NCBI GenBank assembly: GCA_000004985.1
Contig: GG738890.1
Length of the DNA: 64,000 nt
Direction: 5' to 3' (one strand)
Origin: Naegleria gruberi
Lineage: Eukaryota
A program made the translations under genes and the position numbers. Of this stretch, positions 77-48,025 are shown piece after piece. The stretch's first letter is position 1. Each line of letters opens with the position of its first letter. Under the pieces are notes generated by a model. It worked only from the letters and a program-made list of their open reading frames with translations. It made no database searches and had not been told where the DNA came from.

Positions 77-1940
77 TTAAAATAAAAAATAAAAAAACAA
101 ACCTGCCATAATTAAATCATCAATAGATTTTAAAACAGTATTTACACTTTTATAACAAGTAGGATCTTGTACTAAACATCTAATATAACAAATTTTTAAC
201 CATTCTCTTAAACTTGTTTCTTCTTTAACACCTAAAACATTTGAAACTTGATTATCCATTTTAATAAATTTATCATCTTGTTTTAATTGATTTATAAATC
301 TATTTAATTGATACATTTTAATTATATTTGGTGTTATTGCTTGTACAAATTCATCTGATACTAATACATCAAATAAATTCATTAATAATTGTTGTAATAT
401 ATTTGGATCATATTTTCTTAATCCATATATAGATGATGTATTATCTTCTTTTATAGCTCCACTAATTCCACCTAAATGTGATCTTCCTATTAAGGAAAAT
501 CTACATATATCATCTAATAATATTGTTGACATGAAATTAAATTTTAAAAATTGATCTACAAATTTACTATTATCTAATTCTTTTAATTCTTTTAAAAATT
601 GTTTAATAAATTCTTTTCTATTATTTAAATTTATATTTAAATTTAAATTATTATTTAAATTAATATTATTAGAATTATTTATATTTAAATTTAAATTTAA
701 ATTATTATTATTTTTAACAGATTGTAAAATATTTGTAAATCTATTACATTCTTTCATTAATTCATCATCAACAACAATATATCTATTATTTACTAAATTA
801 GTAAATTGTATTAATCTATCAATAATTAAATTTGATTGTTCTTTTCTTAATCTATTTATATTATTTAAAATTTGTACTTTCTTTCTAGGTAAAACTAATT
901 GAGTAGGTAATAAAATTGGAAATATAAAAGCTAAAGCAAAATAAATTGTTGAAAATGGAAAGAATAAAACTATAAATGGAATTGCCTTTAATAATTCAAT
1001 TGAATATTGTGTTGTAAAATAAATTTCAGATCTATTAGCTAAATGAAATGGTCTATTATTATTAATTTCTTTTTTTAAATGTAAATATTTTTTAGTATCT
1101 TGTACAATTAATTTTAATCCATTTATATAAAATTTACCATAATAGGAATATTTATATTTAATATTTTCATACATTCTTTTAATTCTATCTATTAATGAAT
1201 ATGTTTTACCTTTCCATTCTTGATAATNNNNNNNNNNNNNNNNNNNNNNNNNNNNNNNNNNNNNNNNNNNNNNNNNNNNNNNNNNNNNNNNNNNNNNNNN
1301 NNNNNNNNNNNNNNNNNNNNNNNNNNNNNNNNNNNNNNNNNNNNNNNNNNNNNNNNNNNNNNNNNNNNNNNNNNNNNNNNNNNNNNNNNNNNNNNNNNNN
1401 NNNNNNNNNNNNNNNNNNNNNNNNNNNNNNNNNNNNNNNNNNNNNNNNNNNNNNNNNNNNNNNNNNNNNNNNNNNNNNNNTTATTGGATTGATTAGATTG
1501 ATTGGATGGATTAGTGTTATAGTATTATTATTTGATTGATTATCAATAGATTGAGTAGAAGTAGTATTTAATTGATCATCAGAAATGTTATTTGTAGTTG
1601 TAGTAGTACTATTTGTAGTAGTAGTAGTGTTATTATTGTTAATATCTAATGGTTGTTGTTGTTGTGATGGTTGAGTAGTATTTGTATTATTATTATTAGT
1701 ATTAATTAATTCTTGTTGTTGTTCTTTTAATTTATTATTAATAATAAAACTAGTATGATAATTATTATTTAATACATTGTTATTATTATTGTAATGATCA
1801 TGTTTAGTAAATATTAATGATGATGATGATTTAAATATATTACTATTATTATTAAATGTAATAGTAGAAGTAGTATTACATTTTAATATATTAATACTTT
1901 TAATACTAGTAGATAATCTACTACTACTAGACTTTAACAT
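77..1940 (-). CDS. LETM1-like mitochondrial inner-membrane protein (CDS interrupted by the N gap)
   Basis: The minus ORF 77..1227 contains the LETM1 signature 'YGKFYINGLKLIVQDTKK...LKAIPFIVLFFPFSTIYFALAFIFPILLPTQL', which compares with human '[33 protein letters not shown]'. The upstream segment 1491..1940 begins with ATG at 1938-1940 and encodes a presequence-like N-terminus 'MLKSSSSRLSTSIKSINILK' followed by poly-N/T low complexity. Frame continuity across the gap cannot be verified. Confidence 0.7.
601..720 (-). repeat. Coding low-complexity microsatellite (Asn/Leu/Ile repeat) inside the LETM1-like gene
   Basis: Reiterated 'aaatttaaatt/attatt' DNA encoding NNNNLNLNLNINNSNNINLNNNLNLNINLNN. 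Confidence 0.6.
1228..1490. other. Assembly gap (run of N) inside a coding region
   Basis: 263 consecutive n characters. The flanking minus-strand ORFs on each side belong to the same LETM1-like gene. Confidence 0.99.
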
Positions 1941-2266
1941 TTTAAACAACACAAAGTAGTAACTATGATGATAATAATATGTTAAATAATAATAACTTTT
2001 CCACACAAAAGAGATCTTTGATCAACAATTTAATTTGTTTGTTTTTTTTTAATTTCTCCGTATGGAACGTGAGTGATTGATTACATACAGTGAATCAAAA
2101 TCTTTGATCGTATTGTGCTATCAATGTATATTTAATTATTATTGATTGAATAGATTCATTTGATCAATAGTTTCTTGGTAGAATGTTCAATATTTCGGAG
2201 ATTAAACTCCTGAAAATAATCATCAACATCACATTAACTTTCATCTGTAGAATCAATTAAAAAAAA

Positions 2267-3796
2267 ATGATGAGATATCATTCTAATAAAACTCATCATT
2301 TTATTATAAAAATAATAATACTATTAAATATATTTATATTATTTAATTTATTAATAACATGTCATTGTTATTTAGTAATTAATAATAATAATAATTCTAA
2401 TAATAATAATTTTAATAATAATAATGAAATAATAATAAATTCAACTAATATAAATTATTCAATTGATAGATTAGATTGGAACCAAAGAATTCCATTTAAA
2501 AATCCCAAATTAATAATTTATTGTAAAAATAAAGAATGTGTACAAAAATGGATAAAATATGTAAAAATAAATGAAATTCCATTTAGAATTAGAAGTGGTA
2601 AACATTCATATGAATATTATAGTGTAGTTGATAATGGAATTGTAATTGATGTTTCATTAATTAATTTTATTGAATTAAATGAAAATTTTATAAAATTAGG
2701 ACCTGGAAATAGAAATTTTGATATTTATAACTATTTATGGAAATATAATTATGCATTTACAGGTGGTACATGTCCAACTGTTGGTGTTTCTGGTTTTACA
2801 TCTGGTGGTGGATTTGGATATATTTCTAGAAAATATGGATTAGCAATTGATAATTTACTAGAAATGGAAATTATTAATCATGATTCAAAATTATTAAAAA
2901 TTAATCAAACAAATGAATTTAATGATTTATTTTGGGCAATGAAAGGTGGTGGTAATGGTAATTTTGGTGTTATAGTTTCATTATCTTTTAAATTAATTAA
3001 AGCACCTAAAATGGTAATTAAATATGATTTACATTGGAATAATTATAATAATATTTATAAAGTATTTAATATTTGGCAAAAATTAGCACCTCATACAGAT
3101 AATAGATTAACAAGTCAATTTACAATTTTTAATAATTCATTTGCCTCTCAAGGTTTATTTATAGATGGTACTGAAAATGAATTAAAATTATTATTAAATA
3201 ATTTAATAGAATCGAGTAGGGAAAATATGGATCAATTAAATTTTAAAATTTATTCCTATTATGATAGTATATTAGATTATGCACAATGTAAAAATGAACA
3301 AGATTGTTTAAATGAAATGAAAAAACAACCATCTATTGAAAATCCTATTTTATATAAAACTAAAAGTTCATATGCATTTAAAGAAATACCAAAAGAAGGA
3401 ATTGATTATTTCATTGAAACTATACCAAAATTACAATTACAATCATCATCTTTTATTTGTGTACAATTTGATTCCTATGGAGGTGCAATTAGAGAGAATG
3501 ATATTAATCTTGTGAAAAGTTCATTTCCACACAGATTAGCACTCTATCATGCACAATATATGATTTATTATTCAAATAGAAATGAAAGATATCAAGTTGA
3601 ACAATTTATTAATCATTTATATGATTTAACTGTTCCATTTCTATCTCCACATTCATATGTTAATTATTGTGATGCCTATTTAAAAGATTATGAATTTGCA
3701 TACTATTCAATTAACATGTTCAAATTAAGAGAATTGAAAAAGAAATATGATCCTTTCAATTTGTTTAAATATGAACAATCAATTTCATTCATTTAA
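2267..3796 (+). CDS. Secreted FAD-linked oxidoreductase, berberine-bridge-enzyme-like (PCMH-type FAD-binding domain)
   Basis: 509 aa. N-terminal signal peptide. The FAD-binding motif 'FTGGTCPTVGVSGFTSGGGFGYISRKYGLAIDNLLEMEII' is present, followed by 'WAMKGGGNGNFGVI'. The ATG sits in an aaaaaaaaATG context. Confidence 0.85.
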   Translation: MMRYHSNKTHHFIIKIIILLNIFILFNLLITCHCYLVINNNNNSNNNNFNNNNEIIINSTNINYSIDRLDWNQRIPFKNPKLIIYCKNKECVQKWIKYVKINEIPFRIRSGKHSYEYYSVVDNGIVIDVSLINFIELNENFIKLGPGNRNFDIYNYLWKYNYAFTGGTCPTVGVSGFTSGGGFGYISRKYGLAIDNLLEMEIINHDSKLLKINQTNEFNDLFWAMKGGGNGNFGVIVSLSFKLIKAPKMVIKYDLHWNNYNNIYKVFNIWQKLAPHTDNRLTSQFTIFNNSFASQGLFIDGTENELKLLLNNLIESSRENMDQLNFKIYSYYDSILDYAQCKNEQDCLNEMKKQPSIENPILYKTKSSYAFKEIPKEGIDYFIETIPKLQLQSSSFICVQFDSYGGAIRENDINLVKSSFPHRLALYHAQYMIYYSNRNERYQVEQFINHLYDLTVPFLSPHSYVNYCDAYLKDYEFAYYSINMFKLRELKKKYDPFNLFKYEQSISFI

Positions 3797-8018: not shown

Positions 8019-9459
8019 TTATTCTTGTTTTGATTTTTTAAGTTCTGGTTCTTCAACTGAACTTTCTAATGAAAGTTTTGCCAATTGTAAAGCACTTTCA
8101 TAAGACTTTGCACCACCAATGAAACCAGAAGCATGTACAAAAATACAACCAGGAATTCCAGATTTTTGACTTAATTCTTCATCTCTAATACCTCTCCAAT
8201 CCTTATGAAGTGGAACACGTGATGTAAATGAAGATTCAGATTGTGGAACAGCTTGAACTCTCCAATCACCTTTAACATCTTGGAAAAGAGCAAATTTAAT
8301 TGATCCAATTGAATTTGTCTTTTCTTCTAAAACATATAAATGAGCTTTCCATGGACAAAATTGATCAAATAATACAATTTCACCTGATGAATCAACTTGA
8401 AATCTACTATTAAAAGCTCTTTCAACAATTTGATAAGCAGGAAGCCAATCATCAACATAGAAAGATAAACTTTCTAAAAATTCAGAACGTGTTAATTCAA
8501 TTGCTTTAGAAAATCCTAAATTTAAACTTTCATCTGTTGATGGTTGATTCCATTTTGGATTAAATCTTGAAACACGATTTGGAAGTGTTGTTGTAATTTT
8601 ATATTTCAATTCTCCATCTGAAACTTCAATACCATTATCATTGGCCTATTATTATGTTTTTTTTAATAATCATTTAATATTATATTAATATTATATTATA
8701 ATTATTATTATAAGTATATTAATAAATAATATTAATAAATAATAATAAAAATAATAATAATACATACATCAATATGTTCAATAAAATTAGCATACATTCT
8801 TAAATAAATATCATCTTTTTGATCAATTGTTGCCTTTTCACCAACTAATTCTTCAATAATTTGTCTTCCAAAATGTTTATAAATTAAACCAGCACTTGAT
8901 AATCTAATCTTATTAAATTTATCATTATCAAATGTATCTTTAAATGATGCTTGATGATGATCATAACGATGTTTTTGTGCATCATAAATAGCTCCAACAT
9001 CAACTATAATATCACATTGTGAAAGAATTGTTTCATCTCTTGTACGAATAACAATACCATCTTGATATTCTTTTAATAAACTTAATAATCCAATTGCTAA
9101 TGATTCATCACAATGAAATGATCCACTATGTGTACCAATCTTTTTAGTTTCAGACTATTTTTTGATCATGATGATGTGATTATGTTGGTGATTGATTAAT
9201 ATGAATAAATATTAAAGTAATCGGATAATGATGATGAATAAAGTATTATATAAACACATACTGATAAATCTTGTGGAATGTTAGAAACAACTTTATAAGC
9301 TACTCCTGAATTCATTCTATTATTATGAAAGGATCTTTTACTATTATTATTTAATATTGATGATGATGATACTATTATATTCTTTCCAATAGTAATTGCA
9401 ATTCTACTACTACTACTATTAGATGAAGATGTATTGTTCAATATTTTTTTTAAAAACAT
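8019..9459 (-). CDS. MYG1/UPF0160 family metal-dependent protein hydrolase, 3 exons
   Basis: Exons: 9262..9459 (presequence-like 'MFLKKILNNTSSS...'), 8768..9154 ('SETKKIGTHSGSFHCDESLAIGLLSLLKEYQDGIVIRTRDETILSQCDIIVDVGAIYDAQKHRYDHHQ...') and 8019..8645 ('ANDNGIEVSDGELKYKITTTLPNRVSRFNPKW...HASGFIGGAKSYESAL'). Both introns begin gtatgt and end tag. The IGTH(x)G(x)FHCDE motif is diagnostic of MYG1. Confidence 0.8.
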
Positions 9460-9639
9460 TTTTTAATCAATTTCAAAATTGAATTTTATTTTTTATTAGT
9501 AAGAATCCTTTGACAATACAGAGGCGGGCCTGCAATTTGGTAGTCTTTGTAATGTTTTAAAAAAAAATGTAACAACACTGAACCTAGCATATCACTCTGC
9601 TGGTTACTCATCACAAACAAACAACAAAAAAACAATCAA

Positions 9640-10452
9640 ATGCCAGCCACCATCAAAACAATCAAGAGTAGAAAAAACTGTACTAACTACTTCATCAATT
9701 ACGATCGTGAATTCTTTGAACAACAACAAGAGAAGAAAACCAAGACACCAAAAGAGAAGGTATCGAAGGGGAGGGTTGTATCAAGTAGAGGAATCAAGAA
9801 GAGCAGAAAGAGTAATATCTCCAAGAAATTCAGAGAACCAGTTTGGGTAAAGAGAGTAAAGGCTCACCAAACCAAAGTTCAATCCATTCGTTCGTTCAAG
9901 CCTAATCCAATTGATAGAGCAGAGTTTGATAATTGCTTGAAGGAGATGAGTTTAAGAACTGGTAAACCATTTAATAGTGATACGGAAGTGTATGAATATT
10001 TAGAAAGAAGATGGAATGAGTTTTCTTTTGATGCTGTCAAGGTTCTTTGTGCTAATTTGCAACCAGGTGACGTCAAGTGGGGATACAAGTTACATTTAGG
10101 TACCATTTCTTATGCTATTTTGGATAGAATTTTGTGTTTGAACCATAATTGCAAGAAGGAGATTATTGATATCGAACAAACCATTAATAGAGAGAAAGTT
10201 CCAACCCGTATCTTCAAGTATCACTTTATGAAGGAGTGTGGATTTCCAAAATTCAAGTCAAGTTATGATTGGACTTTCAATTTGCTATTTCCAGATGAGG
10301 AAAAATCTTATCTCCAAATTTGTGAGTACACAGCCATGACATTGGTTTGTAATGACTATGATAACAGAGTATATGTTAATTGGGAAATGTCTTGTCATTC
10401 AATGAAATGTTACGATAATTTCGATTTTGGTTATTGGATGATAAGTAATTAA
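9640..10452 (+). CDS. Hypothetical protein (270 aa), no recognisable domain; C-ending-codon-rich 5' half, atypical start context
   Basis: Intact ATG-initiated ORF inside the compositionally atypical block. The start context is caaATGcc, not the usual aaaaATG. Confidence 0.4.
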   Translation: MPATIKTIKSRKNCTNYFINYDREFFEQQQEKKTKTPKEKVSKGRVVSSRGIKKSRKSNISKKFREPVWVKRVKAHQTKVQSIRSFKPNPIDRAEFDNCLKEMSLRTGKPFNSDTEVYEYLERRWNEFSFDAVKVLCANLQPGDVKWGYKLHLGTISYAILDRILCLNHNCKKEIIDIEQTINREKVPTRIFKYHFMKECGFPKFKSSYDWTFNLLFPDEEKSYLQICEYTAMTLVCNDYDNRVYVNWEMSCHSMKCYDNFDFGYWMISN

Positions 10453-13400
10453 ATTTTAATTTTCTCTTAATTATTAATATTGTTTTGAAATATTTCGAAC
10501 TGACTTGCAAATTTGTAAATAATTATTTGGAAATGGATTTGGAGTGGAATTATTTCATCAATTAATGTACTTGGAATGAATTTAGGATAATTTGAAATTA
10601 TTGGAATTAATTTTAATTTTGGATACATGTAGAAATTAGATAATTTTTGGATCGTTGAATTATATTATATAACAGGTAAGATTTGTCTCCCTTATTTCAT
10701 TTTGTAAAATTATCTTATAGGATGGTTCTGAATAATTTAGTGAAAAGACAACTACTGTCTAAATGGGTTTAAAAAGTGGATGTCAATTGGCACTATCAGT
10801 GAATTAGCTATTAATATTTTATCCAAACTGGAATAATATTTAAGGTAAATCAACTTATTCAAGAGTGATGTCATTTCATTTTGAAATGAGTAATTTGTTA
10901 CTTTGGCTTCATAATCCTCATACAAGGTATTGTTATTGAGAGCTTACATATGATTGGAGAATATTACCAACAGTTCCAAGATCTTATTGAATGAGGAGTA
11001 TATTTGTAAAGAGAGTTTGACCATTATTAGCAATGGAATATTGTGTAATAATCAAGTTCGAATTCACTTTCGTCCAAGACGAATTTCTTAGTGACTAGTT
11101 CATTCACTTGCTATTCAGATTCAACTGGTTCGTTTTTTCAACATTAAAAAATTCCCAGTCGTCATCTCCACCTCCAACATTCTCTTCCTTTCATTTGAAC
11201 TGTTAGCACTTGATTTACAGAGATTGTATAGATAGGTTCGAAATCAGATTTGTTGGGACCATTCAAATGAGCAGATTTCATTAATTATAGAAGAAAGGTT
11301 CATGAATATTTGATTGAAAGGGACAGATAATATCTGCAAAATTATTCAACACTTATACCATTAATCGCTTATTTCGACAACCGAAAGATCAAAGAAGGTT
11401 CATAAATCCTTTCATGCAAAGAAAACATACACCCTTCCATTTACTTTGCATACTTGTTTCATCCATTGAAGAGGAAACTGTGACTTTGAAGTTGAAGAAG
11501 CGCACTTTAGAGCATTAAAAGTTGCTATGGACGAAAATTATCAAATCGAGTTATTCTGTGTAGATTCAACACTCCATTGATACCTCCTTTCCCCTCCAGT
11601 CCTTGTCGATGGATTTCAAAGTTTCCCAGCAAGTTTCACCAGATTATTCTTCAGTTTATCTCAACAAAAAACAATTCTCCAATCGAAGAAGGAATCAAGA
11701 TTGTTAGATAAACCTCTCTTCTCATTGGATAAGAATTTAGTTGAGAGCTACCAAGCAAATGAATCATTTTCTTTTCAATCTGAGTACCTTTTCCAAACTG
11801 AGTGAGTTTTTGAATGGAAATGAATGTGAATCTTTGAGCTTGAGTGAATTGGTAACTCACTTATTTGTTCTATCTTAATGAAAAGGCATTCACATAACGG
11901 TATTTCCTTCTCTAAATATTAAATCATATCTATGGAACTCTTTGAAACAGCTTGGCAAGAGTCACCACCAGCAGAAACACTACTCTGTAATTGTTTCCAA
12001 ATATGAACATTCCTAATTCAAAAATAATAATGCCAGTAGAATTTCCATAGAGACTCTTTGTTGCCTCATACAATTAGTCAAAAATCAAATATTCCAATTA
12101 ATTTTCAAATATAATATTGCATTCTTTAAATCTGATGATTGTAAAGCCTTATCTAGTTAACTTGCCAGTTATTGAGTATTGTCAAGCAGTGACTCTGATA
12201 ATTGATCATTTTGAATGCTGATTCTCTAATTGAACCCTGTTTTCTTTTAGCCCCTTGAACAAAAGTTTGAATCTTTGGAATGTATTCAACTTCAGTCAAG
12301 TTAGAAAAGACAGAAAGTACTGGAGAAGTATTTCGATGGTATTGGGAACTATTTCACAAAGCACAAAATTGAATCTTGACATTTATCAAACAAGTGCAAT
12401 CAGATCATCAAGATATTATGAAAGATGGGAAAGTTGTTAGTGGACAGTGGTTTCTCCAATATAAAAACAAGGCAGAATCTAATTGATAGAAAGTGATGAA
12501 GAATTGGGTCCATTTTGGATGAACATTTTGAAAGTTTTTGGAAGAATCGCCAATACCCAATAATTGATGCATATGAAAATTCTCTTAATAGATTACCTTG
12601 AAAGGTAGAATTAGATATGATAGTTGCTGTTTCATTGATTACATTTCTAACCTTTTTCAATGAAGTAACCAAAGGATCAGAAGTTCTATTAAGTCCAACA
12701 CAGAAAGCAATCCACAATTTGATTATTAACATTCATATTATAGTTGATAATATTCTAAAACAATATAACATACCTGAAACAAATCCATCAAACACGGAAT
12801 CTCCTCTGGCATGCCCAGAAAGAGGTTCTTCACCAAAGAGGACCCACGAGTATAATTCCAGCAATAAACTATCCAAATTTAATCATGAATTAAACAATTG
12901 ATCATCATCCAAGATATGAATTTTGATTTTATCCAATTCCAAACATGACACACTCACATTAAATCTTGTTTTCTAATCCAATTTCAGCAATATTAGAGTC
13001 TTTTTGTTGTGAATGTTGAGTAAACTCATTCAAATAAATACTTACCAAATTTACAATAAAGTTAATCTCTTCCACTAATTGGAGTGGTAAGAACAGGAAG
13101 TGATATCAATAATTCTTCGTGATGAAATATAAACTGTTAATATGTAATAAATCAAATGGACGAACACTAGCCAAACTGAAATTAGTATGAGTTAGTACTT
13201 GTTTGGAGTTTGATAGCAAGTTCTATTCAATTGATCGTCAAGTAAATTTTCTCCATAATTAATAATTCAATAAAGTGAAACAACTCTTGTTGATTACCTT
13301 ACTGATAATATGAAATTGTATAAGGATAATTGTATACAATTTATCAGTTGTGGTTTCATTCATTTCTAATTGTTGGATAAGATGAATCTTCTCTCAAATA

Positions 13401-13803
13401 AATGAGCATAATAATTATTTGATATTTAAAGATAGTGTCAATTACAATTATTAGAAATACCAACAACAAGATTAGATGATATTGAACTGTAAATTATTAA
13501 AAAGTCTAAAAAATTGTAATAAATCAGATATTATTGTTAGTATTTCTATAGTCTTTAAAACAAGTACAATAATTACATACTTTCCTTATAAAAATTTCCA
13601 TTAAATTTCGGACATTCATAACTAGTTTCATTATCGCAACTTCATATTTTAAATTTTAATATTATAATTAATATTAATTATATCATGATATATTGCTCCA
13701 ATTAAAAAACTACAATTATAATAGTAATAATTAATTGATTTTTGATGATGTAAAATTGACATGTTGAAAAGAGTGGTGCATTGTGATGATATTTTTTTTA
13801 TTG

Positions 13804-14118
13804 TTACAAGAATGAATCGTCATCAAACATGTCCAGTGAGGTTTGTGATTGATTGGGCTGTGAGGGAAAATCAAATAGCATTGAAGAAGTAACTTCACCA
13901 CAATCCAAAATTACAACATTGGGCTCAACAACTTTTGAATTCTTGTGTCGTACTTTTGGGGGAGGAATTATACAGTCTACACCTCGCTTAATACACCTAC
14001 TACATTTTGGTTTCAAGTGATCACACTTTTTATGAAGTTTGTTGCAATTAAGACAAGCCAATTCAGTTGTAATTGTGGTAGAATTCAATATCTTCTTCTT
14101 ATTGTATCTCTTTTTCAT
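13804..14118 (-). CDS. Small ORF encoding a Gal4-type Zn2Cys6 zinc-cluster motif plus acidic C-terminus
   Basis: ATG at 14116-14118. A basic stretch 'KKRYNKKK' is followed by 'CLNCNKLHKKCDHLKPKCSRCIKRGVDC', which has the C-x2-C-x6-C-x6-C-x2-C-x6-C spacing. The tail is acidic: 'DMFDDDSFL'. It could be one exon of a larger gene. Confidence 0.4.
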   Translation of the reverse strand: MKKRYNKKKILNSTTITTELACLNCNKLHKKCDHLKPKCSRCIKRGVDCIIPPPKVRHKNSKVVEPNVVILDCGEVTSSMLFDFPSQPNQSQTSLDMFDDDSFL

Positions 14119-15700
14119 TTTCTTTGGTTTTGTAATTTGCCCACATATCGAAATTCTTAATAGCCTGCTTTTTTGGATTGGTTAATGGTTGAAACTCATC
14201 TCTCTTTTTCTGACATTTATCCAAAATAACCATTGCACTTTCTGTTGGACTGCTTTTTAGCATTTCTTTTGATTCATTGTAAAACGAATCTACCATTGCT
14301 ATATATTTCTCACTCAGTGTTTTTTCCTCTCTTAACAAACCAATCCATGGCTTCTTATATTCAGTAGACATAAAAATACGTCTCCAAGGTAAAAGAACAC
14401 ACTCTGAAAATGAAGGTCTGTTGTTGGATGCTTGGTGATTAGATTTTCTTGTTGATATCAATCTTCCCAAAGCATGCATTCCTTCACACCCTTGATTCAT
14501 ATATCTTGCTAATGATCCAAACTTGTCCAGCAATTTGGGTAAATGTTCCAATATAATATGAACATAATAGCCAAATTCGAAATGAAAGGAGTCTTGATAC
14601 TCTTCTGCAATCTCTTTTAACATATTTTTCAAATGTTGTTTTCCTTCTTCAGTTGAATAGGTCCTTTCTAGTACCTGTGTTGGTGCTTCCATGTAATTAT
14701 AAATTACAGTTCTCATTAAAGTAAATAGCCTCACATGTTCTTTTGTAAACTCTTCATCTGATAATGTTTCAAAGAAAATTGATTCAAAATTTTTCAAAAT
14801 TATATCAGCTTGAGTTCCATTAATATAAGGAAGTTCAATTTCTAACTTTTCTTGCAATTGCTTGTTGGCACTTGTTTGTTTTTTAGATTCCTCTCTGAAC
14901 TTGAATTGAGAAAAAAAAGGGTATCTCTGTAATTCATTACATACTGCCTCAACACTGTCCTTTTTTAAAGGACCAAGTACTAACTTGAGTAGATTTTCAA
15001 CTATGCGTAACTTTGCATGTAATACATCCACTACCATAAAATCCAATAGAGTGTCATATTTTGCATGTTTGAGGAGTTTTTCTTGAAAGACAGGTTTTTC
15101 TTGCAAACACAAATGTCTGTTTTTGGCAGTAGCATTGCAGAATGGGCATACAAATGTTTCTCCCATCATTTTCCATAGGCCAGACATATCAGGACAAACA
15201 TATACCTTGATTTGAATTTTCTTTGTTGTTCCATTGTTAAAATCATATTCAAAACCTGATTTCGAGAGTTCATTAAGATCGGTAAATGTTTGGTTGAAAT
15301 ATTTAGAAATATCCACAGTTGTTTCCTTTCCGTGATACATATCTGTGAGGAAAGCATTGTTTCTACATTGGGTTGCCAATTTGGTGTTCAGAGGTACCAA
15401 AGCATGAATTACATCATTACCTGGTCTGCCATCCCAAAAACTTTTCAATTCTAATATATCAGATATTTCTCCTGTTACTTCTTTGATTAGGTCAACCATT
15501 AATTGAATAACACATTTCGTATCAACATGTACACAATTCTCTGAAAAGGATATATTTAATTTCTTGATAATTTCATCATTCAATTTGTATCTTTCATTCT
15601 TCAATTCATCCATTGTACATGTTATTCCATTTAAATGATGATAGCTATAAAATTCATAAAAGTGATTATCTGACATCAAGTGTTTGTCTGTGAAATACAC
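14099..15700 (-). CDS. Hypothetical 533-aa protein, Cys/His-containing, no confident family assignment
   Basis: Long ORF. The listed start is GTG, and the first ATG is about 8 codons downstream. It contains 'VCPFCNATAKNRHLC' and 'HIILEHLPKLLDKFGSLARYMNQGCEGMHALGRLI'. Codon usage (ctg, ctc, gtg, agg, cag) differs from neighbouring genes. Its 3' end overlaps the 13804..14118 ORF by 20 nt in a different frame. Confidence 0.4.
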   Translation of the reverse strand: MYFTDKHLMSDNHFYEFYSYHHLNGITCTMDELKNERYKLNDEIIKKLNISFSENCVHVDTKCVIQLMVDLIKEVTGEISDILELKSFWDGRPGNDVIHALVPLNTKLATQCRNNAFLTDMYHGKETTVDISKYFNQTFTDLNELSKSGFEYDFNNGTTKKIQIKVYVCPDMSGLWKMMGETFVCPFCNATAKNRHLCLQEKPVFQEKLLKHAKYDTLLDFMVVDVLHAKLRIVENLLKLVLGPLKKDSVEAVCNELQRYPFFSQFKFREESKKQTSANKQLQEKLEIELPYINGTQADIILKNFESIFFETLSDEEFTKEHVRLFTLMRTVIYNYMEAPTQVLERTYSTEEGKQHLKNMLKEIAEEYQDSFHFEFGYYVHIILEHLPKLLDKFGSLARYMNQGCEGMHALGRLISTRKSNHQASNNRPSFSECVLLPWRRIFMSTEYKKPWIGLLREEKTLSEKYIAMVDSFYNESKEMLKSSPTESAMVILDKCQKKRDEFQPLTNPKKQAIKNFDMWANYKTKENEKEIQ

Positions 15701-15705
15701 TGCAC

Positions 15706-16857
15706 CTAAGGGCTTAGATTTTCTTCCAATTCTGAAATTCCTATAGTTGAAAGATGATGATATAATTTCGTGAGATATCTTGGTCCTGTTGCTCCGTAAT
15801 TGGTTAATTTTTGAAAAAACTCGTCCTCATTTCTTTCATAATACCAATCCATATATGAATCTAAATTTTCACCATTAGCTTCTAAAATATCATTCAGTAG
15901 TTCAGTAATTCTCTCTCCTTTTTCATTACGTGATCTTGTTTCCAAATCTTTCATTGGTGTTGTGGATTTTCTGGTTGAGGTGGTTGTAATATGGAAGGAA
16001 TTACAGTTGTTACATTGTAAACCAGCACTCTTTTTAATTTCAATAATTGGTTTGTTTTTTGTTTTTCTACTTCTTTCATTCGAAACATCTTTTGGATTAA
16101 ATTCTTTTGACATTTCATTCACCTCATTTGAATTCTCAACCACTGTGTAGGTTTGACAATTTCTAATTTTTGTGTGTTTTTTGATTTCAGATTTGATTTT
16201 TTCGGTCTGAATTGAATTTCTCAATTGCTCATACAATTTTTCTCTCAACCATTCATGCACATCCTTTGAAATTGAACATCCTGCAGAAGTAAGGAATGAA
16301 TAAGCGGCTACTTTATCCATTATAGTGAATTTCGAATCATAAATAAGAAATGAGGGACTATTTGAGGATTGAATAGTTCTAGCCATATGACAATTTCTAT
16401 CCAATTCTTTCCTAAGATTATAATCCATCCCTAACATTGGTCCACAATTTGACAGGTCTGAATCATTGTGATTGGTAAAATCAATCATTCTAAATTTTGC
16501 AAATGTTTGAATTGGGAAAATTTTGTCAGTAGTGTTGGAGGGAAATGGTTGAAAAGAAGGTAAAATTCCATTATATACTAGACTCTGAAAGCTTGGCTGA
16601 TTTTGAGACGTATTGTATTGAGAAGAAATTTGAGAAGCCATTGGGGTACCATGTAATCCATCTTCTCCTTCATCATGCTGATCAGCTTCCATAATATCAT
16701 CACTGCCACCATTGCGTAACTCATCTCTACATTTACTGCAACAATATTTCTTCGTTTTTGGTGTTGAAGAATCGACTTCCGGTTTTAAATAAACCTTGAG
16801 AACGTATTTTGAACAAACAGAACATTGCTTTGAATGCTTCCTTTGTTTTATTGGCAT
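15706..16857 (-). CDS. Hypothetical 383-aa protein with N-terminal CxxC...CxxC zinc-ribbon-like motif
   Basis: ATG at 16855-16857. The N-terminus 'CSVCSKYVLKVYLKPEVDSSTPKTKKYCCSKCRDE' has a zinc-ribbon-like spacing. The stop lies 5 nt upstream of the next ORF, which is open in another frame for about 40 codons across the junction. Confidence 0.4.
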   Translation of the reverse strand: MPIKQRKHSKQCSVCSKYVLKVYLKPEVDSSTPKTKKYCCSKCRDELRNGGSDDIMEADQHDEGEDGLHGTPMASQISSQYNTSQNQPSFQSLVYNGILPSFQPFPSNTTDKIFPIQTFAKFRMIDFTNHNDSDLSNCGPMLGMDYNLRKELDRNCHMARTIQSSNSPSFLIYDSKFTIMDKVAAYSFLTSAGCSISKDVHEWLREKLYEQLRNSIQTEKIKSEIKKHTKIRNCQTYTVVENSNEVNEMSKEFNPKDVSNERSRKTKNKPIIEIKKSAGLQCNNCNSFHITTTSTRKSTTPMKDLETRSRNEKGERITELLNDILEANGENLDSYMDWYYERNEDEFFQKLTNYGATGPRYLTKLYHHLSTIGISELEENLSP

Positions 16858-17406
16858 TTGTTTTCTCTTAACTAGTGGAATTATTGAACTGTCACTGATC
16901 TAAATAAAAAACACTTGAAAAAAATGAAAAAAATTATCGACCTACTTTCTGACATACCACTTTGCAACAATTACAAGTCATTTATTTCGGCGTTTGGCTC
17001 GGGAAATCAATTATATTAATAATTAAAAACATGTGAATTTTTATAAAATTGAAACCGTGCTGAACCAAACACTGAAATAAGTGAGTAAATCATCACGTCC
17101 TATTTTGAATTATTTTTAGTATTAAATATTTATTTTATAAAATCCCGAAATAAATCTTTCAACAAATGATTTTTCATAAAATCCATCAATGGGTGTTTTA
17201 CTACCTAATTTCAAAATATCGCAATGTGAATACTTATAGTTTTTGAATAAATAATTTTTTTATTAGGTCACCCAATGTGACATTTTTACTTCGGCCGTTA
17301 GCAGCCGCCACTTTGGCAAACCAAATTGCACCAAAAAATGAGTTCCGACACTGCATTGGTTGTTAAATACTACTATTTAAATAGTCTATAATTATATTCA
17401 TTGTAT

Positions 17407-18510
17407 CTATTTACTTAAAGTTTTTAATAAAGAAGTTAATAAAGGATGTGAAATTGTTTTAATTCCATTTTCAAAATAACCATTATAAAATGATAAATAT
17501 CCTCCACGTTTTTTAATATCCTTAATGATATATATTAATGAATGATGATTTACTTCTATCTCTTCTTTACTATTATTATTACTACTCATATTATTATCAT
17601 TCATATTATTACCATTTATATCATTCATATTATTATTAATACTCATATCAAATGATTGAAATTGAATTCTTTTATGTATAGTTTCAATTGGATGTGTTAC
17701 TAATAATGGAATAAATGTTGATAAAGATGTAATTATTAAAGATTTAAATATTCCCTTTTTAATATTAATTAAATTATCATCTAAATATTTCTTTACAAAT
17801 TTATTTAAATAATAATAAATAGTTAAATCTAATAATTTAATTGATAAACCTGTAAAATTAATTGAATTATAAATATTTTTAGTAATATTAAATAATGAAA
17901 AATTATTCCAACAATTAATTAAATTTTCAAATAAAGATTTTGAATAAATTTTAGTTTTTGGTAAAATTAATAATTTTTCATTTTCAATTTTTAAATCTAA
18001 AATCATTTTTTCATTTTGTAAAGTATGAAATGGATATAATCCAATATTAATTAATAAATGTGATACAAAATAAGAATCAATTATTTTTCTATAAGGTGCT
18101 AATAATAAAAGTGATGAAATTCCTAAAAAGGCTTGAGGAATGAAAATATAAAAATTATAATCAATTCCTTTAAGAAATGCATAAATTCCATCACTTTTAA
18201 ATATTGTCCATATATTTAATGATTTTCCATATATTTGTTTATTTATCATAATAACTCCTATTGGATGTAATATTAATTTACTTGTTAATGAACATAATAA
18301 ATTCATAAATACTCTCTTATTTAATATTATAGAGAGAAATTCATCAGAGTTTTTTAAATGAATATCCGTTTGTTTTCTTATTCTTCTTTCAGGATGAGAA
18401 ATTTCATTTGATGATGTTGTTGTTGTTGTATTTGAATTTGTATTTGTAGTGTTATTATTATTAGTTTGACTGAATGGACCTGCAATTGGTCTCATATTAC
18501 TTTTAAACAT
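17407..18510 (-). CDS. Multi-pass membrane protein, possibly a highly divergent mitochondrial-carrier-like protein
   Basis: 367 aa with several hydrophobic segments. It has carrier-like motifs 'THPIETIHKRIQFQ' (P-x-E-x-x-x-K-R) and 'HPIGVIMINKQ', plus a poly-N/T N-terminus. The assignment is weak. Confidence 0.35.
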   Translation of the reverse strand: MFKSNMRPIAGPFSQTNNNNTTNTNSNTTTTTSSNEISHPERRIRKQTDIHLKNSDEFLSIILNKRVFMNLLCSLTSKLILHPIGVIMINKQIYGKSLNIWTIFKSDGIYAFLKGIDYNFYIFIPQAFLGISSLLLLAPYRKIIDSYFVSHLLINIGLYPFHTLQNEKMILDLKIENEKLLILPKTKIYSKSLFENLINCWNNFSLFNITKNIYNSINFTGLSIKLLDLTIYYYLNKFVKKYLDDNLINIKKGIFKSLIITSLSTFIPLLVTHPIETIHKRIQFQSFDMSINNNMNDINGNNMNDNNMSSNNNSKEEIEVNHHSLIYIIKDIKKRGGYLSFYNGYFENGIKTISHPLLTSLLKTLSK

Positions 18511-18708
18511 TTTTTTTTGAAAAAGGCTTTGAAATTAATATTAATGGCTTAAATATATTTATCTGAAAGAGATGAACCAATAACCAATATATTGGTTGAG
18601 GTGATGATAATTTTGATATATATATTATTATCAAGTATGTTGTTAATAATGGATCTTTCATTCATATTTTGTTGATAATATTTAATAATTAATAACAACC
18701 ATTAAAAA

Positions 18709-21025
18709 ATGAGTGGAGAACAAAACAAGGCTAATGATGAAGTAGAGAATACAACAACAACAATAATAACATCATCATCATCATCGGATCATAACAAGCA
18801 ACAACAACAACAATATGAAGAAATAACATGCATTGATAAAATTATAGAAACATTTCAAGATAAATGTAAACAATTTAAACAACATGTATTAAATTTGAAT
18901 ATAGCAAAACAATCATCAGAGGAAACTAAATCAATATTTATGGAAGGTTATCATAAATTATTAGAACTTCAATCACTTCAAATACAAATTAATATATTTC
19001 AAAAAAGAATGAATGATTTAAGAATTGAAAGAAAGAAGGAAATGGAACTTCCACTTTTAGAATGTAATAATTTATCATGTGAAGCTTCTTATTTTCAAAG
19101 AGATATTTCAATTTGTAAAAATTATTATTCAAGACATGTTGAAATTGATTTACCTTCTGAAGATGATGAATTTAAAAATAGAGATAAATCATCTACTATT
19201 TTATTAGAAATTGAAAAATTAAAACAATCATCATTGAATGGAATAGATTCTGAATTATTATTAAAAAAACAACATGAATTAATGATGAAAAGATTAACAT
19301 TTGAACTTGATGAAAGAGAAAAATTAGAAAAGGAAATTCTTGAAATTAAACAAGAACAAGAAAAGGCAAAACAAGAACAAGTTAATATTGAAAAATATAT
19401 TAATAATATTCCAAAGAATTTAGCTGCAATGAAAAAGACAATTCAACAATTTGAACCTGTTATTAATCCATCAAAACATCAACATACTGATTGGTTTACA
19501 AATGAAGAACTTGAATTAATGAATCAATTACCAACTCCTCTATTTATTTTATATAACAAATTAATGGAATATAAGAAAGTTTATGATGATTCAATTTTAA
19601 TATCTATAGTAGGTGATTCTGAAAGAGCTAAAACTATTTGGAATGATTCTGATTTAGATGAATCATCTTTTAATACTGTTAATAGTAATGGTAATAATAA
19701 TAGCAGTGGTGGAAGTGGTACTGGTAATAGTGGTACTAGTAATAGTGGAAGTGGTGCTGGTGCTGGTATAACACCATCATATATTGATGAATTAACAGGT
19801 GAACCAAAGAGAAAAAAGTTAAAACAAGTTGATAATAATAGTGAAATGTGTAGCATGTTTCCACTTGTTATTCAATTAAGAGTTCAACTTAAATTCTTTG
19901 GTAGGTTATTGTTTTTTAATTTATTATAATTTACATGTATTTTAATATCAACTTGATTTAATATCATCTCTTTTATCATGATATTATTATTATTATTATT
20001 ATTACTTCTACCACTACTACTATTCTATTACTACTAATTTCTTGTTATTATTATTAATAGAAAAAAATAAGAAATTATTAATTGAATTTGGATATCTTCA
20101 TAAAGCAAATATGGTAGTTGTAAATGAAGCAAGAACAGCAGCACTTGTTTTACCAACATTAATACAGGGAGATGATGGCAGTATTTCACCAAATGTTCAA
20201 TGTATGTCAGATTATGATTTTTCAACATTTGAAAGAGGAAGACCATATCGTTGGTTACAACAAATATGTGGATTAGAATTTATAAGTGCAAGAATATCAA
20301 GTAATATTTCATCTAAAGAAAATAGACCAGAAGAATCTAAAAATTATTCATTAAGTTATATTCTAAATTTATTTAAATACAAACAAAAAGCTAAAAGATA
20401 TTTGTTAAATCAATTAAAATCATTGGAATTGAATGAACCTTTAAAGAATGAATTTCCATCATGCCTTTCATTTGTACCTAAATTAGAATCATTTAAACAA
20501 ACTAATGTTACATATACTTCAATTACATTTTTAATTACAGTTAGAATTGACAAGTATTTATTTGAAAGTGAATTATTGGTAAATGTTGTGGATTATCCTT
20601 TAAAATCTCCACAATTTAAAAAATTAACTCAAATTCAACCAACAATTGAACAAACTATTCCAGAAGAATATCAAGATTTAATATGTCATGATAATTCAAT
20701 TGAAATTGTTAGAGAAGATTCTTCATGGTCAAATCCATTACTTTATCAAATAGAAAAAGATGTAAATTATTCATTTGTTTCAAAATTTAATCATAAGAAT
20801 CAATATCAACAATCACAAGATCCACAAAATATTGACCATTTTAATTTAATTTCAAATCAATTATTTAGATTAATGTCAAATTTAGCAGTTTTTGTTGAAT
20901 TGAAAAATCCAGAATCTAAAGCATTTGATACAAGGAAGTTCTTAATTGGTAAAAATCAAGATATTCCATTACAATATGATAGTAGAAATAATGTATTTAG
21001 ACATGTATTAGAAGAGGAAGAATAA
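18709..21025 (+). CDS. THO complex subunit 5 (THOC5/FMIP) homolog, 2 exons
   Basis: Exon 1 is 18709..19900 and exon 2 is 20061..21025. The phase-1 intron runs gtaggt...taatag. Conserved blocks are 'LPTPLFILYNKLMEY' (human 'LPPPLYVLFVQATAY') and 'MSDYDFSTFERGRPYRWLQQICGLEF' (human '[23 protein letters not shown]'). The N-terminal half is coiled-coil. Confidence 0.75.
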
Positions 21026-47952: not shown

Positions 47953-48025
47953 GCCCCGCTAGCTCAGTCGGTAGAGCGTTGGACTTTTAATCCAACGGTC
48001 GTGGGTTCGAGCCCCACGTGGGGCG
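47953..48025 (+). tRNA. tRNA-Lys (anticodon UUU)
   Basis: 73-nt cloverleaf 'GCCCCGCTAGCTCAGTCGGTAGAGCGTTGGACTTTTAATCCAACGGTCGTGGGTTCGAGCCCCACGTGGGGCG'. The anticodon loop is CTTTTAA. Confidence 0.8.

What the first reader, a model, noticed from the sequence alone, without database searches (positions are those of the whole stretch)
9460..17406. ~7.8 kb compositionally atypical block: candidate degraded mobile or horizontally acquired element between two ordinary genes
From just past the MYG1 start (9459) to the stop of the 17407 gene, the sequence is GC-richer than the surrounding DNA. Its ORFs differ from the neighbours, which have aaaaATG starts and strong AT codon bias. Inside are (i) an intact 270-aa ORF on the + strand with a non-canonical start context, (ii) a 3.3 kb stretch (10453-13803) with no ORF of 60 aa or longer, which is unusual in a window that otherwise has a gene every 1.5 kb or so, and (iii) three consecutive minus-strand ORFs (104, 533 and 383 aa) that abut or overlap in different reading frames and carry Cys-rich zinc-binding-like motifs. 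I found no RT (YxDD), integrase or clear DDE signature, so the family is unknown. It could be an unclassified DNA transposon remnant, a viral or foreign insertion, or a cluster of lineage-specific genes.
Basis: partly seen in the sequence, partly recalled or inferred. Interest (0 to 1): 0.65.

Follow-up and report, generated by a model that had tools for sequence, protein, structure and literature searches.

The report
Decayed RAG1-like DNA transposon in Naegleria
The block is a worn-out copy of a cut-and-paste DNA transposon in the amoeba Naegleria gruberi whose broken transposase has the same fold and catalytic residues as RAG1, the enzyme that rearranges vertebrate antibody genes; the family is unannotated but belongs to a known kind of element.

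Summary
The window is Naegleria gruberi NEG-M, not a dictyostelid. The three abutting minus-strand ORFs (383, 533 and 104 aa) are one ~1,020-aa gene broken by two frameshifts; an intact 1,232-aa homologue exists elsewhere. The 533-aa core is a DDE transposase of the RAG1/Transib/CACTA ('CMCT') clade. It keeps D90, D171 and E406 plus the 2-Cys/3-His zinc signature. A family profile hits only RAG1 in the PDB (E=4e-7). A confident AlphaFold model (pLDDT 84) matches only RAG1, RAG1L and HzTransib (E down to 6e-11). The C-terminus carries a Gal4-type Zn2Cys6 domain. The intact 270-aa ORF is an annotated gene (NAEGRDRAFT_71319). It is a conserved tail-to-tail partner of this transposase in two other loci, 46-48 bp apart, and is under purifying selection (dN/dS 0.11). 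In the window a 3.35-kb non-coding spacer of unknown origin separates the two genes. Relatives are multicopy, often fragmentary and non-syntenic in Naegleria, Willaertia and Planoprotostelium. The 'atypical GC' claim is only local: the block is 31.0% GC against 29.4% for the window. No terminal inverted repeats or target-site duplication could be established, so the superfamily (Transib or EnSpm-like) is unresolved. Verdict: a degraded transposon, a new member of a known kind.

The parts
9514..17362 (.). Approximate extent of the element (~7.85 kb), set by where homology to related copies starts and stops
   Evidence: The left breakpoint against L003 is at ~9514 (CAATACAGAGGCGGG...). The right breakpoint against L002 is at ~17358-17363 (minus strand: (A/C)ACAACCAATGCAGTGTCGGAACTC). 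The two ends share an imperfect inverted ~20-nt motif CCAATRCAG..CGGRACT; I counted 14/20 matches by eye from the sequences printed. No significant TIR or TSD was found.
9514..9639 (+). Conserved upstream region of orf270 (left end region or promoter)
   Evidence: Window 9514-10495 matches L003 144-1140 at 81.6% identity; this upstream stretch is the first part of that match.
9640..10452 (+). orf270: intact accessory gene (NAEGRDRAFT_71319 / XP_002673435.1), with a basic N-terminus and a conserved ~170-aa C-terminal domain of unknown fold
   Evidence: It is identical to an annotated N. gruberi protein. Only 3 homologues are known. It lies tail-to-tail with the transposase gene in L001 (46 bp apart) and L006 (48 bp apart). 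dN/dS is 0.11 against the L003 copy. There is no Pfam or PDB match, and the AlphaFold model is poor at pLDDT 46.
10453..13803 (.). 3.35-kb non-coding spacer between the two convergent genes; derived, origin unknown
   Evidence: The equivalent gap is 46-48 bp in L001 and L006. Stop density is about what I estimate for random sequence of this composition. There are no internal repeats, no Rfam hit and no similarity to L001-L003 or to the rest of the window. A weak 46-nt direct repeat (74% identity) lies at 10449-10494 and 13649-13694.
13804..14118 (-). Transposase pseudogene, segment 3: C-terminal Gal4-type Zn2Cys6 domain (13954-14058) and acidic tail
   Evidence: Pfam Zn_clus matches at E=9.4e-10, residues 21-55. 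The segment aligns to P0007 residues 1066-1111. The same C-terminal domain is present in P0007 and in the L006 product.
14099..14118 (-). Frameshift 2, in an A-rich run (AAAATGAAAAAGAG)
   Evidence: The P0007 alignment changes frame between window 14102 and 14058. The junction sequence is shown.
14099..15711 (-). Transposase pseudogene, segment 2: RAG1-fold DDE core. Residues and coordinates: D90 15431-15433; E126 15323-15325; D171 15188-15190; C185/C188 15137-15148; H228 15017-15019; H381/H386 14543-14560; E406 14483-14485
   Evidence: phmmer against PDB hits RAG1 at E=0.058. The family profile hits RAG1 at 3.9e-7 and BbRAG1L at 2e-3, and nothing else. Residue conservation is 21/22 to 26/26. 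The AlphaFold model has pLDDT 84.2 and pTM 0.84. All 48 Foldseek hits at E<=1e-3 are RAG1, RAG1L or HzTransib. Coordinates were checked.
15706..15714 (-). Frameshift 1: a 1-nt deletion inside the conserved NLS-x-LGAVYFTDK motif (AGC CC- TTA GGT)
   Evidence: P0007 residues 251-492 align in frame -2 down to window 15712, and residues 494-1023 align in frame -1 from 15709. The junction sequence is shown.
15706..16857 (-). Transposase pseudogene, segment 1: N-terminal region with CxxC...CCxxC (16729-16824) and a second CxxC..H motif
   Evidence: The segment aligns to P0007 residues 251-492 at 38% identity. P0007 has the same N-terminal Cys pattern. It has no Pfam or PDB hit of its own.
16858..17362 (-). 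Upstream (5') region of the transposase gene and right end region
   Evidence: Window 17169-17339 is 71.5% identical and 17328-17363 is 91.7% identical to L002. In L002 this region is joined directly to the internal position corresponding to window 14915, giving an internally deleted copy.

Best explanation
The block is one decayed copy (~7.85 kb, about 9514-17362) of a two-gene cut-and-paste DNA transposon of Naegleria gruberi.

Gene 1 (minus strand, 16857 to 13804) encoded a ~1,020-aa transposase with three parts:
- an N-terminal Cys-rich region;
- a RAG1/Transib-type RNase-H-fold DDE core with a C2H2 zinc site;
- a C-terminal Gal4-type Zn2Cys6 DNA-binding domain with an acidic tail.

Gene 1 is now split by two frameshifts, so this copy cannot make full-length transposase.

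Gene 2 (orf270, plus strand) converges on gene 1. It is still intact and under constraint, and is probably an accessory factor.

Inferred mechanism, by analogy with RAG1 and Transib: the transposase binds the element ends, and the D90/D171/E406 site nicks and then releases the element through a hairpin on the flanking DNA. It then inserts the 3'-OH ends into a target, creating a short duplication. These steps are inferred, not shown.

The 3.35-kb spacer between the genes is a later, non-coding addition specific to this lineage.

Family placement: the CMCT clade (CACTA/EnSpm, Mirage, Chapaev, Transib and RAG1). The superfamily within that clade is unresolved.
For: One gene, broken:
- An intact 1,232-aa homologue (P0007) aligns collinearly to the three window ORFs. 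The frame changes at ~15710 and between 14102 and 14058.

Transposase identity:
- The family profile hits only RAG1 and RAG1L in the PDB (3.9e-7), over three collinear segments.
- Pfam RAG1 gives sub-threshold hits in 3 family members, best 5e-5.
- D90, D171, E406, C185, C188, H228, H381 and H386 are near-invariant. This is the DDE + 2C + 3H signature that Kojima 2025 gives for the CMCT clade (PMC12730594).
- The H386-to-E406 spacing is 20 residues, as between RAG1 H942 and E962 (RAG1 numbering from my own knowledge).
- The AlphaFold model (pLDDT 84) matches only RAG1, RAG1L and HzTransib, over ~470-600 alignment columns.

Mobile-element behaviour:
- At least 3 further N. gruberi paralogues lie on other scaffolds.
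- There are several copies in N. fowleri and N. lovaniensis, and copies in Willaertia and Planoprotostelium. Many are short fragments.
- L002 is an internally deleted copy that keeps the 5' region. It also carries a nested insertion with a perfect 17-bp duplication.
- The flanks of L001-L003 show no detectable homologues of this window's flanking genes.
- One relative carries a Ulp1 protease domain; from my own knowledge that is a common transposon passenger.
- RepeatModeler reported 38 CMC-EnSpm fragments in N. lovaniensis (PMC6125883).

Gene pair:
- The orf270 homologue sits tail-to-tail with the transposase gene in L001 and L006.
- dN/dS is 0.11 for orf270 and 0.16 for a transposase segment.
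Against: - No significant terminal inverted repeats and no target-site duplication were found in the window.
- No TIRs were found around the intact pair in L001 either.
- The shared ~20-nt inverted motif at both ends contains CCAAT, so it could be a promoter element of the two outward-facing gene starts rather than a TIR.
- orf270 has only one annotated copy in N. gruberi.
- No second copy of this subfamily could be examined in the same genome, because the N. gruberi assembly is not in the searchable indexes.
- The frameshifts rest on one assembly and could be sequencing errors.
- HzTransib was not hit by the sequence profile.
Confidence: 0.75

Rival explanations
1. A domesticated, or formerly domesticated, host gene pair. 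A RAG1-like protein with a Zn2Cys6 DNA-binding domain and its 270-aa partner were co-opted by Naegleria as ordinary genes, for example as a transcription factor or recombinase module. The NEG-M copy of the large gene has since decayed while orf270 stayed functional.
For: - No TIR or TSD is detectable, even around the intact pair in L001.
- orf270 is intact, annotated, single-copy among N. gruberi proteins and under strong purifying selection.
- The tail-to-tail pair is conserved in three lineages.
- The Zn2Cys6 domain plus acidic tail looks like a Gal4-type activator (the comparison with Gal4 is my own knowledge).
Against: - All catalytic and zinc-binding residues are conserved across a large, patchy, multicopy family with many truncated members.
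- The relatives examined sit in non-syntenic contexts.
- L002 has an internally deleted copy with a nested insertion and a stray orf270 fragment.
- The large gene here is broken.
Confidence: 0.12
2. An intact, possibly still active element. The two frameshifts are assembly or sequencing errors in short homopolymer runs (CCC, AAAAA), and the window really encodes a full-length ~1,020-aa transposase.
For: - Both frame changes fall in or beside short homopolymer runs.
- All catalytic residues are intact.
- There are no in-frame stops within the three segments.
- dN/dS of 0.16 against L002 indicates past constraint on the transposase.
Against: - The orf383, orf533 and orf104 sequences are not in the protein collection, so no matching gene model appears to exist here, although orf270 next door is annotated.
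- The linker around frameshift 2 is also ~28 aa shorter than in P0007.
- Frameshifted or deleted copies are the norm among the relatives seen: L002 is internally deleted, and L004/L005 carry a frameshift.
- From my own knowledge the N. gruberi assembly is Sanger-based, where 3-5-nt homopolymer errors are uncommon. I did not check this in the literature.
Confidence: 0.1
3. A horizontally acquired or viral insertion. The block came recently from a virus or a foreign genome, and its composition betrays that origin.
For: GC is locally higher than in the two flanking genes. orf270 has the highest GC3 among plausible ORFs in the window.
Against: - Block GC equals the window average, and other intergenic and coding DNA has the same GC.
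- There are no phage or viral-contig relatives.
- Every named homologue is from Heterolobosea or Amoebozoa.
- The compositional outliers are the AT-rich neighbours, not the block.
Confidence: 0.03

Closest known systems
RAG1 / RAG1L (ProtoRAG) and Transib transposases (e.g. HzTransib)
   Same: - The fold matches across the whole ~530-aa core (Foldseek E 6e-11 to 1e-6, TM about 0.4-0.6).
- The motifs are collinear: K-x3-D-G (D600), the E662-like E126, D-x-K (D708), CxxC (C727/C730), LH (H795), the N-G motif, HxxxxH (H937/H942), and E exactly 20 residues after the second His (E962). RAG1 numbering is from my own knowledge.
- The tail-to-tail arrangement with a second gene recalls RAG1-RAG2 in ProtoRAG and in vertebrates (my own knowledge).
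   Different: - Sequence identity is only ~10%, and the sequence profile does not hit HzTransib.
- No CAC-heptamer/RSS-like TIRs and no 5-bp TSD were found.
- The partner is 270 aa, so too short for RAG2's six-bladed Kelch propeller plus PHD finger, and it matches nothing known.
- The transposase carries a C-terminal Zn2Cys6 domain, which to my knowledge is not described for RAG1 or Transib.
- The host is a heterolobosean amoeba.
CMC superfamilies (CACTA/EnSpm, Mirage, Chapaev) and EnSpm-like lineages (Plavaka, ESTA, Lanisha): the 'CMCT clade' of Kojima 2025
   Same: - It has the DDE plus C(2)C and H(3-4)H (2C + 3H) signature that defines the clade (PMC12730594).
- It is a large two-gene element.
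- The candidate termini read 5'-CA...TG-3'.
- ESTA transposases were also recognised through similarity to RAG1.
- RepeatModeler labels 38 N. lovaniensis repeat fragments CMC-EnSpm.
- One relative has a Ulp1 passenger domain, as in some plant CACTA elements (my own knowledge).
   Different: - No member matches Pfam Transposase_21 (plant CACTA TNP2), Plavaka or KDZ models at E<=1.
- No CACTA-type termini or subterminal repeats were found.
- The TSD length is unknown.
- No phylogeny against Repbase references could be run.
Fungal-type Zn2Cys6 (Gal4-like) transcription factors
   Same: The C-terminal segment matches Pfam Zn_clus above its threshold (38.9 bits against a 21-bit cut-off). An acidic tail follows it.
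   Different: The domain sits at the C-terminus of a ~1,000-aa transposase. From my own knowledge, the usual position is the N-terminus of a regulator with a fungal transcription-factor middle homology region. No such region is present here.

Membership tests
CMCT clade of DDE transposases (EnSpm/CACTA, Mirage, Chapaev, Transib, RAG1) | Catalytic D, D, E on an RNase-H-like fold | tested here: met
   D90, D171 and E406 are conserved in 21/22, 24/24 and 25/25 aligned relatives. D171 and E406 align to RAG1 D708 and E962 in HMMER alignments. The fold matches RAG1 and Transib.
CMCT clade of DDE transposases (EnSpm/CACTA, Mirage, Chapaev, Transib, RAG1) | [quoted passage not shown] | tested here: met
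   C185-x2-C188 (23/23), H228 (26/26) and H381-x4-H386 (24/25 and 25/25). The definition is taken from PMC12730594.
CMCT clade of DDE transposases (EnSpm/CACTA, Mirage, Chapaev, Transib, RAG1) | 5'-CA...TG-3' termini with a 2-5-bp target-site duplication | tested here: inconclusive
   The homology breakpoints give CA at 9514 and TG at 17361-17362. No significant TIR was found. I noticed a possible 3-bp TTG duplication by eye, but it depends on where the boundary is drawn, so I do not count it.
Transib superfamily proper | ~38-bp TIRs starting CACWATG (RSS-like heptamer/nonamer) and a 5-bp TSD | tested here: not met
   An exhaustive scan of CAC...GTG end pairs with 5-bp flank identity gave only two chance-level pairs, with 11-13/40 TIR identity. 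The copy is decayed, so this does not exclude ancestral Transib-type ends.
Transib superfamily proper | Transposase groups with Transib/RAG1 rather than CMC in a phylogeny | not testable with these tools
   No Repbase reference sequences are available. The only indirect evidence is RAG1 hits in Pfam and the PDB, no Transposase_21 hit, and no sequence-profile hit to HzTransib.
EnSpm/CACTA superfamily | CACTA-type termini, 3-bp (or 2-bp) TSD and subterminal repeats | tested here: inconclusive
   No CACTA termini or subterminal repeat arrays were found. The TSD is undetermined.
EnSpm/CACTA superfamily | Transposase matches the TNP2/TnpD-type profile (Pfam Transposase_21) | tested here: not met
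   None of the 27 family members hits PF02992 at E<=1. From my own knowledge that model is built mainly from plant sequences, so this result is weak.
RAG1-RAG2-like two-subunit recombinase | Partner protein with a RAG2-type six-bladed Kelch propeller | tested here: not met
   orf270 is 270 aa with no Kelch, PHD or other Pfam hit and no PDB hit. Its AlphaFold model is low-confidence, a mix of helices and strands.
Fungal-type Zn2Cys6 domain proteins | CX2CX6CX5-12CX2CX6-8C binuclear cluster | tested here: met
   Pfam Zn_clus matches at 38.9 bits (cut-off 21), orf104 residues 21-55. The motif is also present in P0007 and in the L006 product.

The most novel reading that the evidence does not exclude
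The family is a previously undescribed, superfamily-level lineage of RAG1/Transib-like transposons in Heterolobosea and Amoebozoa. Its transposase works with an obligatory, convergently encoded small partner (the orf270 family), an independent parallel to the RAG1-RAG2 tail-to-tail module. It uses a C-terminal Gal4-type zinc cluster to recognise its ends.
Probability: 0.2. Interest if true: 0.65.

Novelty: new member of a known kind. Interest (0 to 1): 0.4.

Why it matters
- It turns an anonymous 'odd block' into a defined object: a pseudogenised DDE transposase of the RAG1/Transib/CACTA clade with its accessory gene, in Naegleria gruberi.
- All named family members seen here are labelled 'hypothetical' or 'predicted' protein, and no member reaches a Pfam threshold for a transposase family. 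Recognising the family would improve repeat and gene annotation in Naegleria, Willaertia and some Amoebozoa. NAEGRDRAFT_71319 and its paralogues could then be treated as transposon genes.
- If further work confirms it, this would place a full RAG1-type core architecture in a discoban protist. The pre-RNase-H, RNase H, ZnC2/ZnH2 and C-terminal modules appear to be present, judging from near-full-length fold alignments. That bears on how old this fold is.
- The Zn2Cys6 fusion and the conserved tail-to-tail partner of unknown fold are unusual features worth an experimental look.
- The specific locus is a dead copy and is ordinary as genome biology.

Tried and rejected
Searches that found nothing:
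- Dictyostelid transposon idea: dropped once six window ORFs proved identical to N. gruberi proteins.
- Word-indexed protein searches with orf533 and orf383. Only the exhaustive HMMER search found relatives.
- Exact-protein contig look-ups for N. gruberi proteins failed; that genome is not indexed.
- Phage DNA search, a viral-contig protein-pattern scan, and two metagenome scans, one by protein pattern and one by end-sequence pattern.
- The first two alignments handed to the locus finder were too diverse to use.

Ends of the element:
- The repeat finder, blastn self-comparison, a local alignment of the two ends with shuffling controls, and an exhaustive CAC...GTG + 5-bp TSD scan gave nothing above chance.
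- The same holds for the intact pair in L001.

The spacer:
- I looked for a decayed gene or a nested element using six-frame translation, tblastx and blastn against L001-L003 and the window, repeat finders, TRF and Rfam. There was no signal.

orf270:
- Pfam, PDB profile search and AlphaFold were uninformative. The alignment had only 4 sequences and the model reached pLDDT 46. I did not run a fold search on that model, because the result would be meaningless.

Other:
- The AFDB fold library was unavailable.
- Programmed frameshifting was considered and rejected. The intact homologue is one continuous ORF, frameshift 1 is a simple 1-nt deletion inside a conserved motif, and I saw no slippery heptamer there.
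- One literature search was too broad and gave nothing useful.
Full report
**Organism and setting**

Six ORFs of the window are identical, residue for residue, to annotated proteins of Naegleria gruberi strain NEG-M on a 350,200-bp contig. One of them is the 270-aa ORF of the finding (NAEGRDRAFT_71319 / XP_002673435.1). The exact sequences of the three minus-strand ORFs are not in the protein collection, so they appear not to be annotated as genes.

**Checking the observation**

- orf270: 9640-10452, + strand.
- orf104: 13804-14118, - strand.
- orf533: 14099-15700, - strand.
- orf383: 15706-16857, - strand.

The compositional claim holds only locally.
- The 500-bp profile shows 25-36% GC across 9.5-17.5 kb, against 15-25% just to the right and 21-23% just to the left.
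- The block as a whole is 31.0% GC, the rest of the window 29.2% and the whole window 29.4%.
- ORF-free gaps elsewhere in the window are 26-34% GC.
- GC3 of orf533 (0.27) and orf383 (0.24) is within the range of other window ORFs. Only orf270 (0.374) is at the top among plausible ORFs.
- The real outliers are the very AT-rich neighbouring genes, with GC3 of 0.04-0.11.

The 3.35-kb stretch 10453-13803 does contain ORFs of 61-110 aa. Each frame holds 67-95 stops per ~1,126 codons, about what my own base-composition estimate of 0.08 stops per codon predicts. So there is no credible gene in it. It is the longest such stretch in the window.

**The three minus-strand ORFs are one broken gene**

An exhaustive HMMER search with orf533 found 63 relatives.
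- The best is P0007, 1,232 aa, E=2.6e-122, 43% identity. It is a single uninterrupted ORF from a 9,992-bp assembled contig, L001.
- tblastn of P0007 against the window gives three collinear pieces:
  - residues 251-492 match 16422-15712 (frame -2);
  - residues 494-1023 match 15709-14102 (frame -1);
  - residues 1066-1111 match 14058-13921 (frame -2).
- The first frame change is a 1-nt deletion inside the conserved motif NLS-x-LGAVYFTDK (AGC CC- TTA GGT).
- The second lies in an A-rich run in a Lys-rich linker, which is also ~28 aa shorter than in P0007.
- P0007 has the same N-terminal CxxC...CxxC pattern as orf383. It also has the same C-terminal Zn2Cys6 domain and acidic tail as orf104.

**What the gene encoded**

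- orf533 alone gives a weak phmmer hit to the RAG1 core (E=0.058). The match includes YYVHIILEHLPKLLDKFGSLARYMNQGCEGMHALGR against [37 protein letters not shown].
- A profile of 27 family members (alignment A1) hits only RAG1 (best 3.9e-7) and amphioxus RAG1L (2e-3) among 177,635 distinct PDB sequences. The match runs over three collinear segments.
- Three members give sub-threshold hits to Pfam RAG1. None matches the plant CACTA (Transposase_21), Plavaka or KDZ models.
- Near-invariant family residues are K86, D90, E126, D171, C185, C188, H228, R232, H381, H386 and E406.
  - The HMMER alignments place D171 on the RAG1 'YDEK' aspartate, C185/C188 on 'CTLC', H381/H386 on 'HKTLAH' and E406 on the 'GNE' glutamate.
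  - By my knowledge of mouse RAG1 numbering, these are D708, C727/C730, H937/H942 and E962.
  - The His-to-Glu spacing is 20 residues in both proteins.
  - D90 sits in a K-x3-D-G motif like the RAG1 KESCDG motif (D600). That pairing is by my reading, not by a tool alignment.
- All of these residues are intact in the window copy.
- An AlphaFold2 model of orf533 built on alignment A1 is confident (mean pLDDT 84.2, pTM 0.84).
- Foldseek against the PDB returns 48 hits at E<=1e-3. Every one is RAG1, BbRAG1L or HzTransib, aligned over ~470-600 columns (best 6.4e-11, TM about 0.4-0.6). The next hit is Hermes at E=0.04.

**Which family**

  - Its signature is DDE plus two Cys and three His, written C(2)C and H(3-4)H.
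  - Most members have 5'-CA..TG-3' termini and 2-5-bp TSDs.
  - At least one EnSpm-like lineage (ESTA) was itself recognised through similarity to RAG1.
- The Naegleria family meets the protein signature exactly.
- So a RAG1 hit alone cannot separate Transib from EnSpm-like lineages.
- The N. lovaniensis genome paper reports 38 'CMC-EnSpm' fragments from RepeatModeler (PMC6125883). These may be this family; I could not check.
- I therefore place the element in the CMCT clade and leave the superfamily open.

**The second gene**

- orf270 has only three known homologues.
- In L001 its homologue (290-300 aa) lies tail-to-tail with the intact transposase gene, 46 bp between the stops. tblastx gives 54% identity over 175 aa.
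- In an environmental contig, L006, another homologue lies 48 bp from the 3' end of a convergent transposase fragment. That fragment again ends in a Zn2Cys6 domain and an acidic tail.
- So the convergent pair is an ancestral unit. A third lineage (L004/L005) shows no partner within 1.3 kb downstream.
- Against an 82%-identical copy (L003), orf270 has dN=0.083 and dS=0.77, a ratio of 0.11. This is strong purifying selection.
- Its function is unknown. There is no Pfam or PDB match, and the model built from four sequences is poor.
- It has a basic N-terminus and a conserved ~170-aa C-terminal domain.
- It is too short for a RAG2-type propeller and matches no known domain.

**The 3.35-kb spacer**

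- The ancestral gap is under 50 bp, so the spacer is derived.
- It has no ORF signal, no internal repeats and no Rfam family. It shows no similarity to the related loci or to the rest of the window.
- A weak 46-nt direct repeat (74% identity, AT-rich) brackets most of it, at 10449-10494 and 13649-13694. It is not convincing.
- L002, the closest transposase relative at the DNA level (72% identity), also has more than 2.6 kb without a called gene longer than 32 aa downstream of its transposase remnant. A long non-coding interior may therefore be a feature of this subfamily.
- Its origin remains unexplained.

**Evidence that the unit is or was mobile**

- Annotated relatives include three N. gruberi proteins on three other scaffolds.
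- There are also two in N. fowleri, three in N. lovaniensis, one in Willaertia magna and one in the amoebozoan Planoprotostelium fungivorum. Many are short fragments.
- L002 carries an internally deleted copy. The 5' region (window 17169-17339) is joined directly to internal position 14915. That 5' region is itself split by a 1,563-bp insertion encoding an RNase H-domain ORF and flanked by a perfect 17-bp duplication. A stray orf270 fragment lies upstream.
- None of L001-L003 shows a detectable homologue of this window's flanking genes.
- One relative has a Ulp1 protease domain.

**What is missing**

- There are no significant TIRs or TSDs in the window or in L001.
- Homology breakpoints put the ends near 9514 and 17358-17363.
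- The two ends share an imperfect inverted ~20-nt motif, CCAATRCAG..CGGRACT (14/20 matches by my own count). Because it contains CCAAT and lies upstream of both outward-facing genes, it could be a promoter element rather than a TIR.

**Mechanism**

Shown:
- An RNase-H-type DDE active-site signature with a C2H2 zinc module, on a RAG1/Transib fold.
- A fused Zn2Cys6 domain.
- A conserved partner gene.

Inferred by analogy with RAG1 and Transib (established biochemistry, not tested here):
- End binding, nicking, and hairpin formation on the flanking DNA.
- Release of the element and integration with a short TSD.

In this copy the transposase is split by two frameshifts, so it could move only if supplied with transposase in trans. 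The role of orf270 as an accessory factor is inferred from the conserved linkage and the selection on it.

**Rivals**

- A domesticated gene pair: confidence 0.12.
- An intact element whose frameshifts are assembly errors: 0.10.
- A viral or horizontal insertion: 0.03. It is contradicted by the composition, by the absence of viral relatives and by the purely eukaryotic-amoeba distribution of named homologues.

**Verdict**

The element is a new, unannotated member of a known kind, the RAG1/Transib/CACTA-clade DNA transposons. It has two unusual features: a C-terminal Gal4-type zinc cluster and a conserved tail-to-tail partner of unknown fold. Interest is moderate.

Noticed in passing
window 77-3796 and 17407-21025: The real compositional outliers in the window are the neighbouring genes. 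They are extremely AT-rich (GC 13-25%, GC3 0.04-0.09), whereas most other ORFs have GC3 of 0.13-0.28. These genes made the block look GC-rich.
   Followed up: partly
window 29710-29781 (+), 29867-29938 (-), 47953-48025 (+): A divergent tRNA-Pro(TGG)/tRNA-Met(CAT) pair lies 85 bp apart, and there is a separate tRNA-Lys(TTT).
   Followed up: no
L002 3659-5255: A 1,563-bp insertion carries a 475-aa ORF with an RNase_H Pfam hit. It is flanked by a perfect 17-bp direct duplication (ATTTTTTAGTGCTAAAT) and is nested in the 5' region of an internally deleted transposon copy. It looks like a retroelement insertion.
   Followed up: partly
window 10449-10494 and 13649-13694: A 46-nt AT-rich direct repeat (74% identity; the first 12 nt are identical) brackets 3.2 kb of the spacer. 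It starts exactly at the orf270 stop codon. It could be the trace of an old insertion or just chance in AT-rich DNA.
   Followed up: partly
protein P0020 (Logan contig, 915 aa): This family member has a C-terminal Ulp1/Peptidase_C48 domain (E=7e-16) fused to the RAG1-like core.
   Followed up: no
protein P0036 (Planoprotostelium fungivorum PROFUN_15917, 1160 aa) and P0049 (Willaertia magna): The family is not confined to Naegleria. It occurs in another heterolobosean and in an amoebozoan. That implies either great age or transfer between amoebae.
   Followed up: no
L004 (JGI 3300002220) and L005 (ENA ERZ27315067): A once-frameshifted transposase copy (35% identical to P0007) occurs with the same neighbouring genes in two independent metagenome assemblies, next to HATPase_c and Memo fragments. 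No orf270-like partner lies within 1.3 kb downstream.
   Followed up: partly
window 9196-9459 / 8019-8609 (-): The MYG1 gene (Pfam MYG1_exonuc, E=6e-67) appears split into at least two exons. The annotated-looking start at 9459 lies only ~55 bp from the left end of the element.
   Followed up: no
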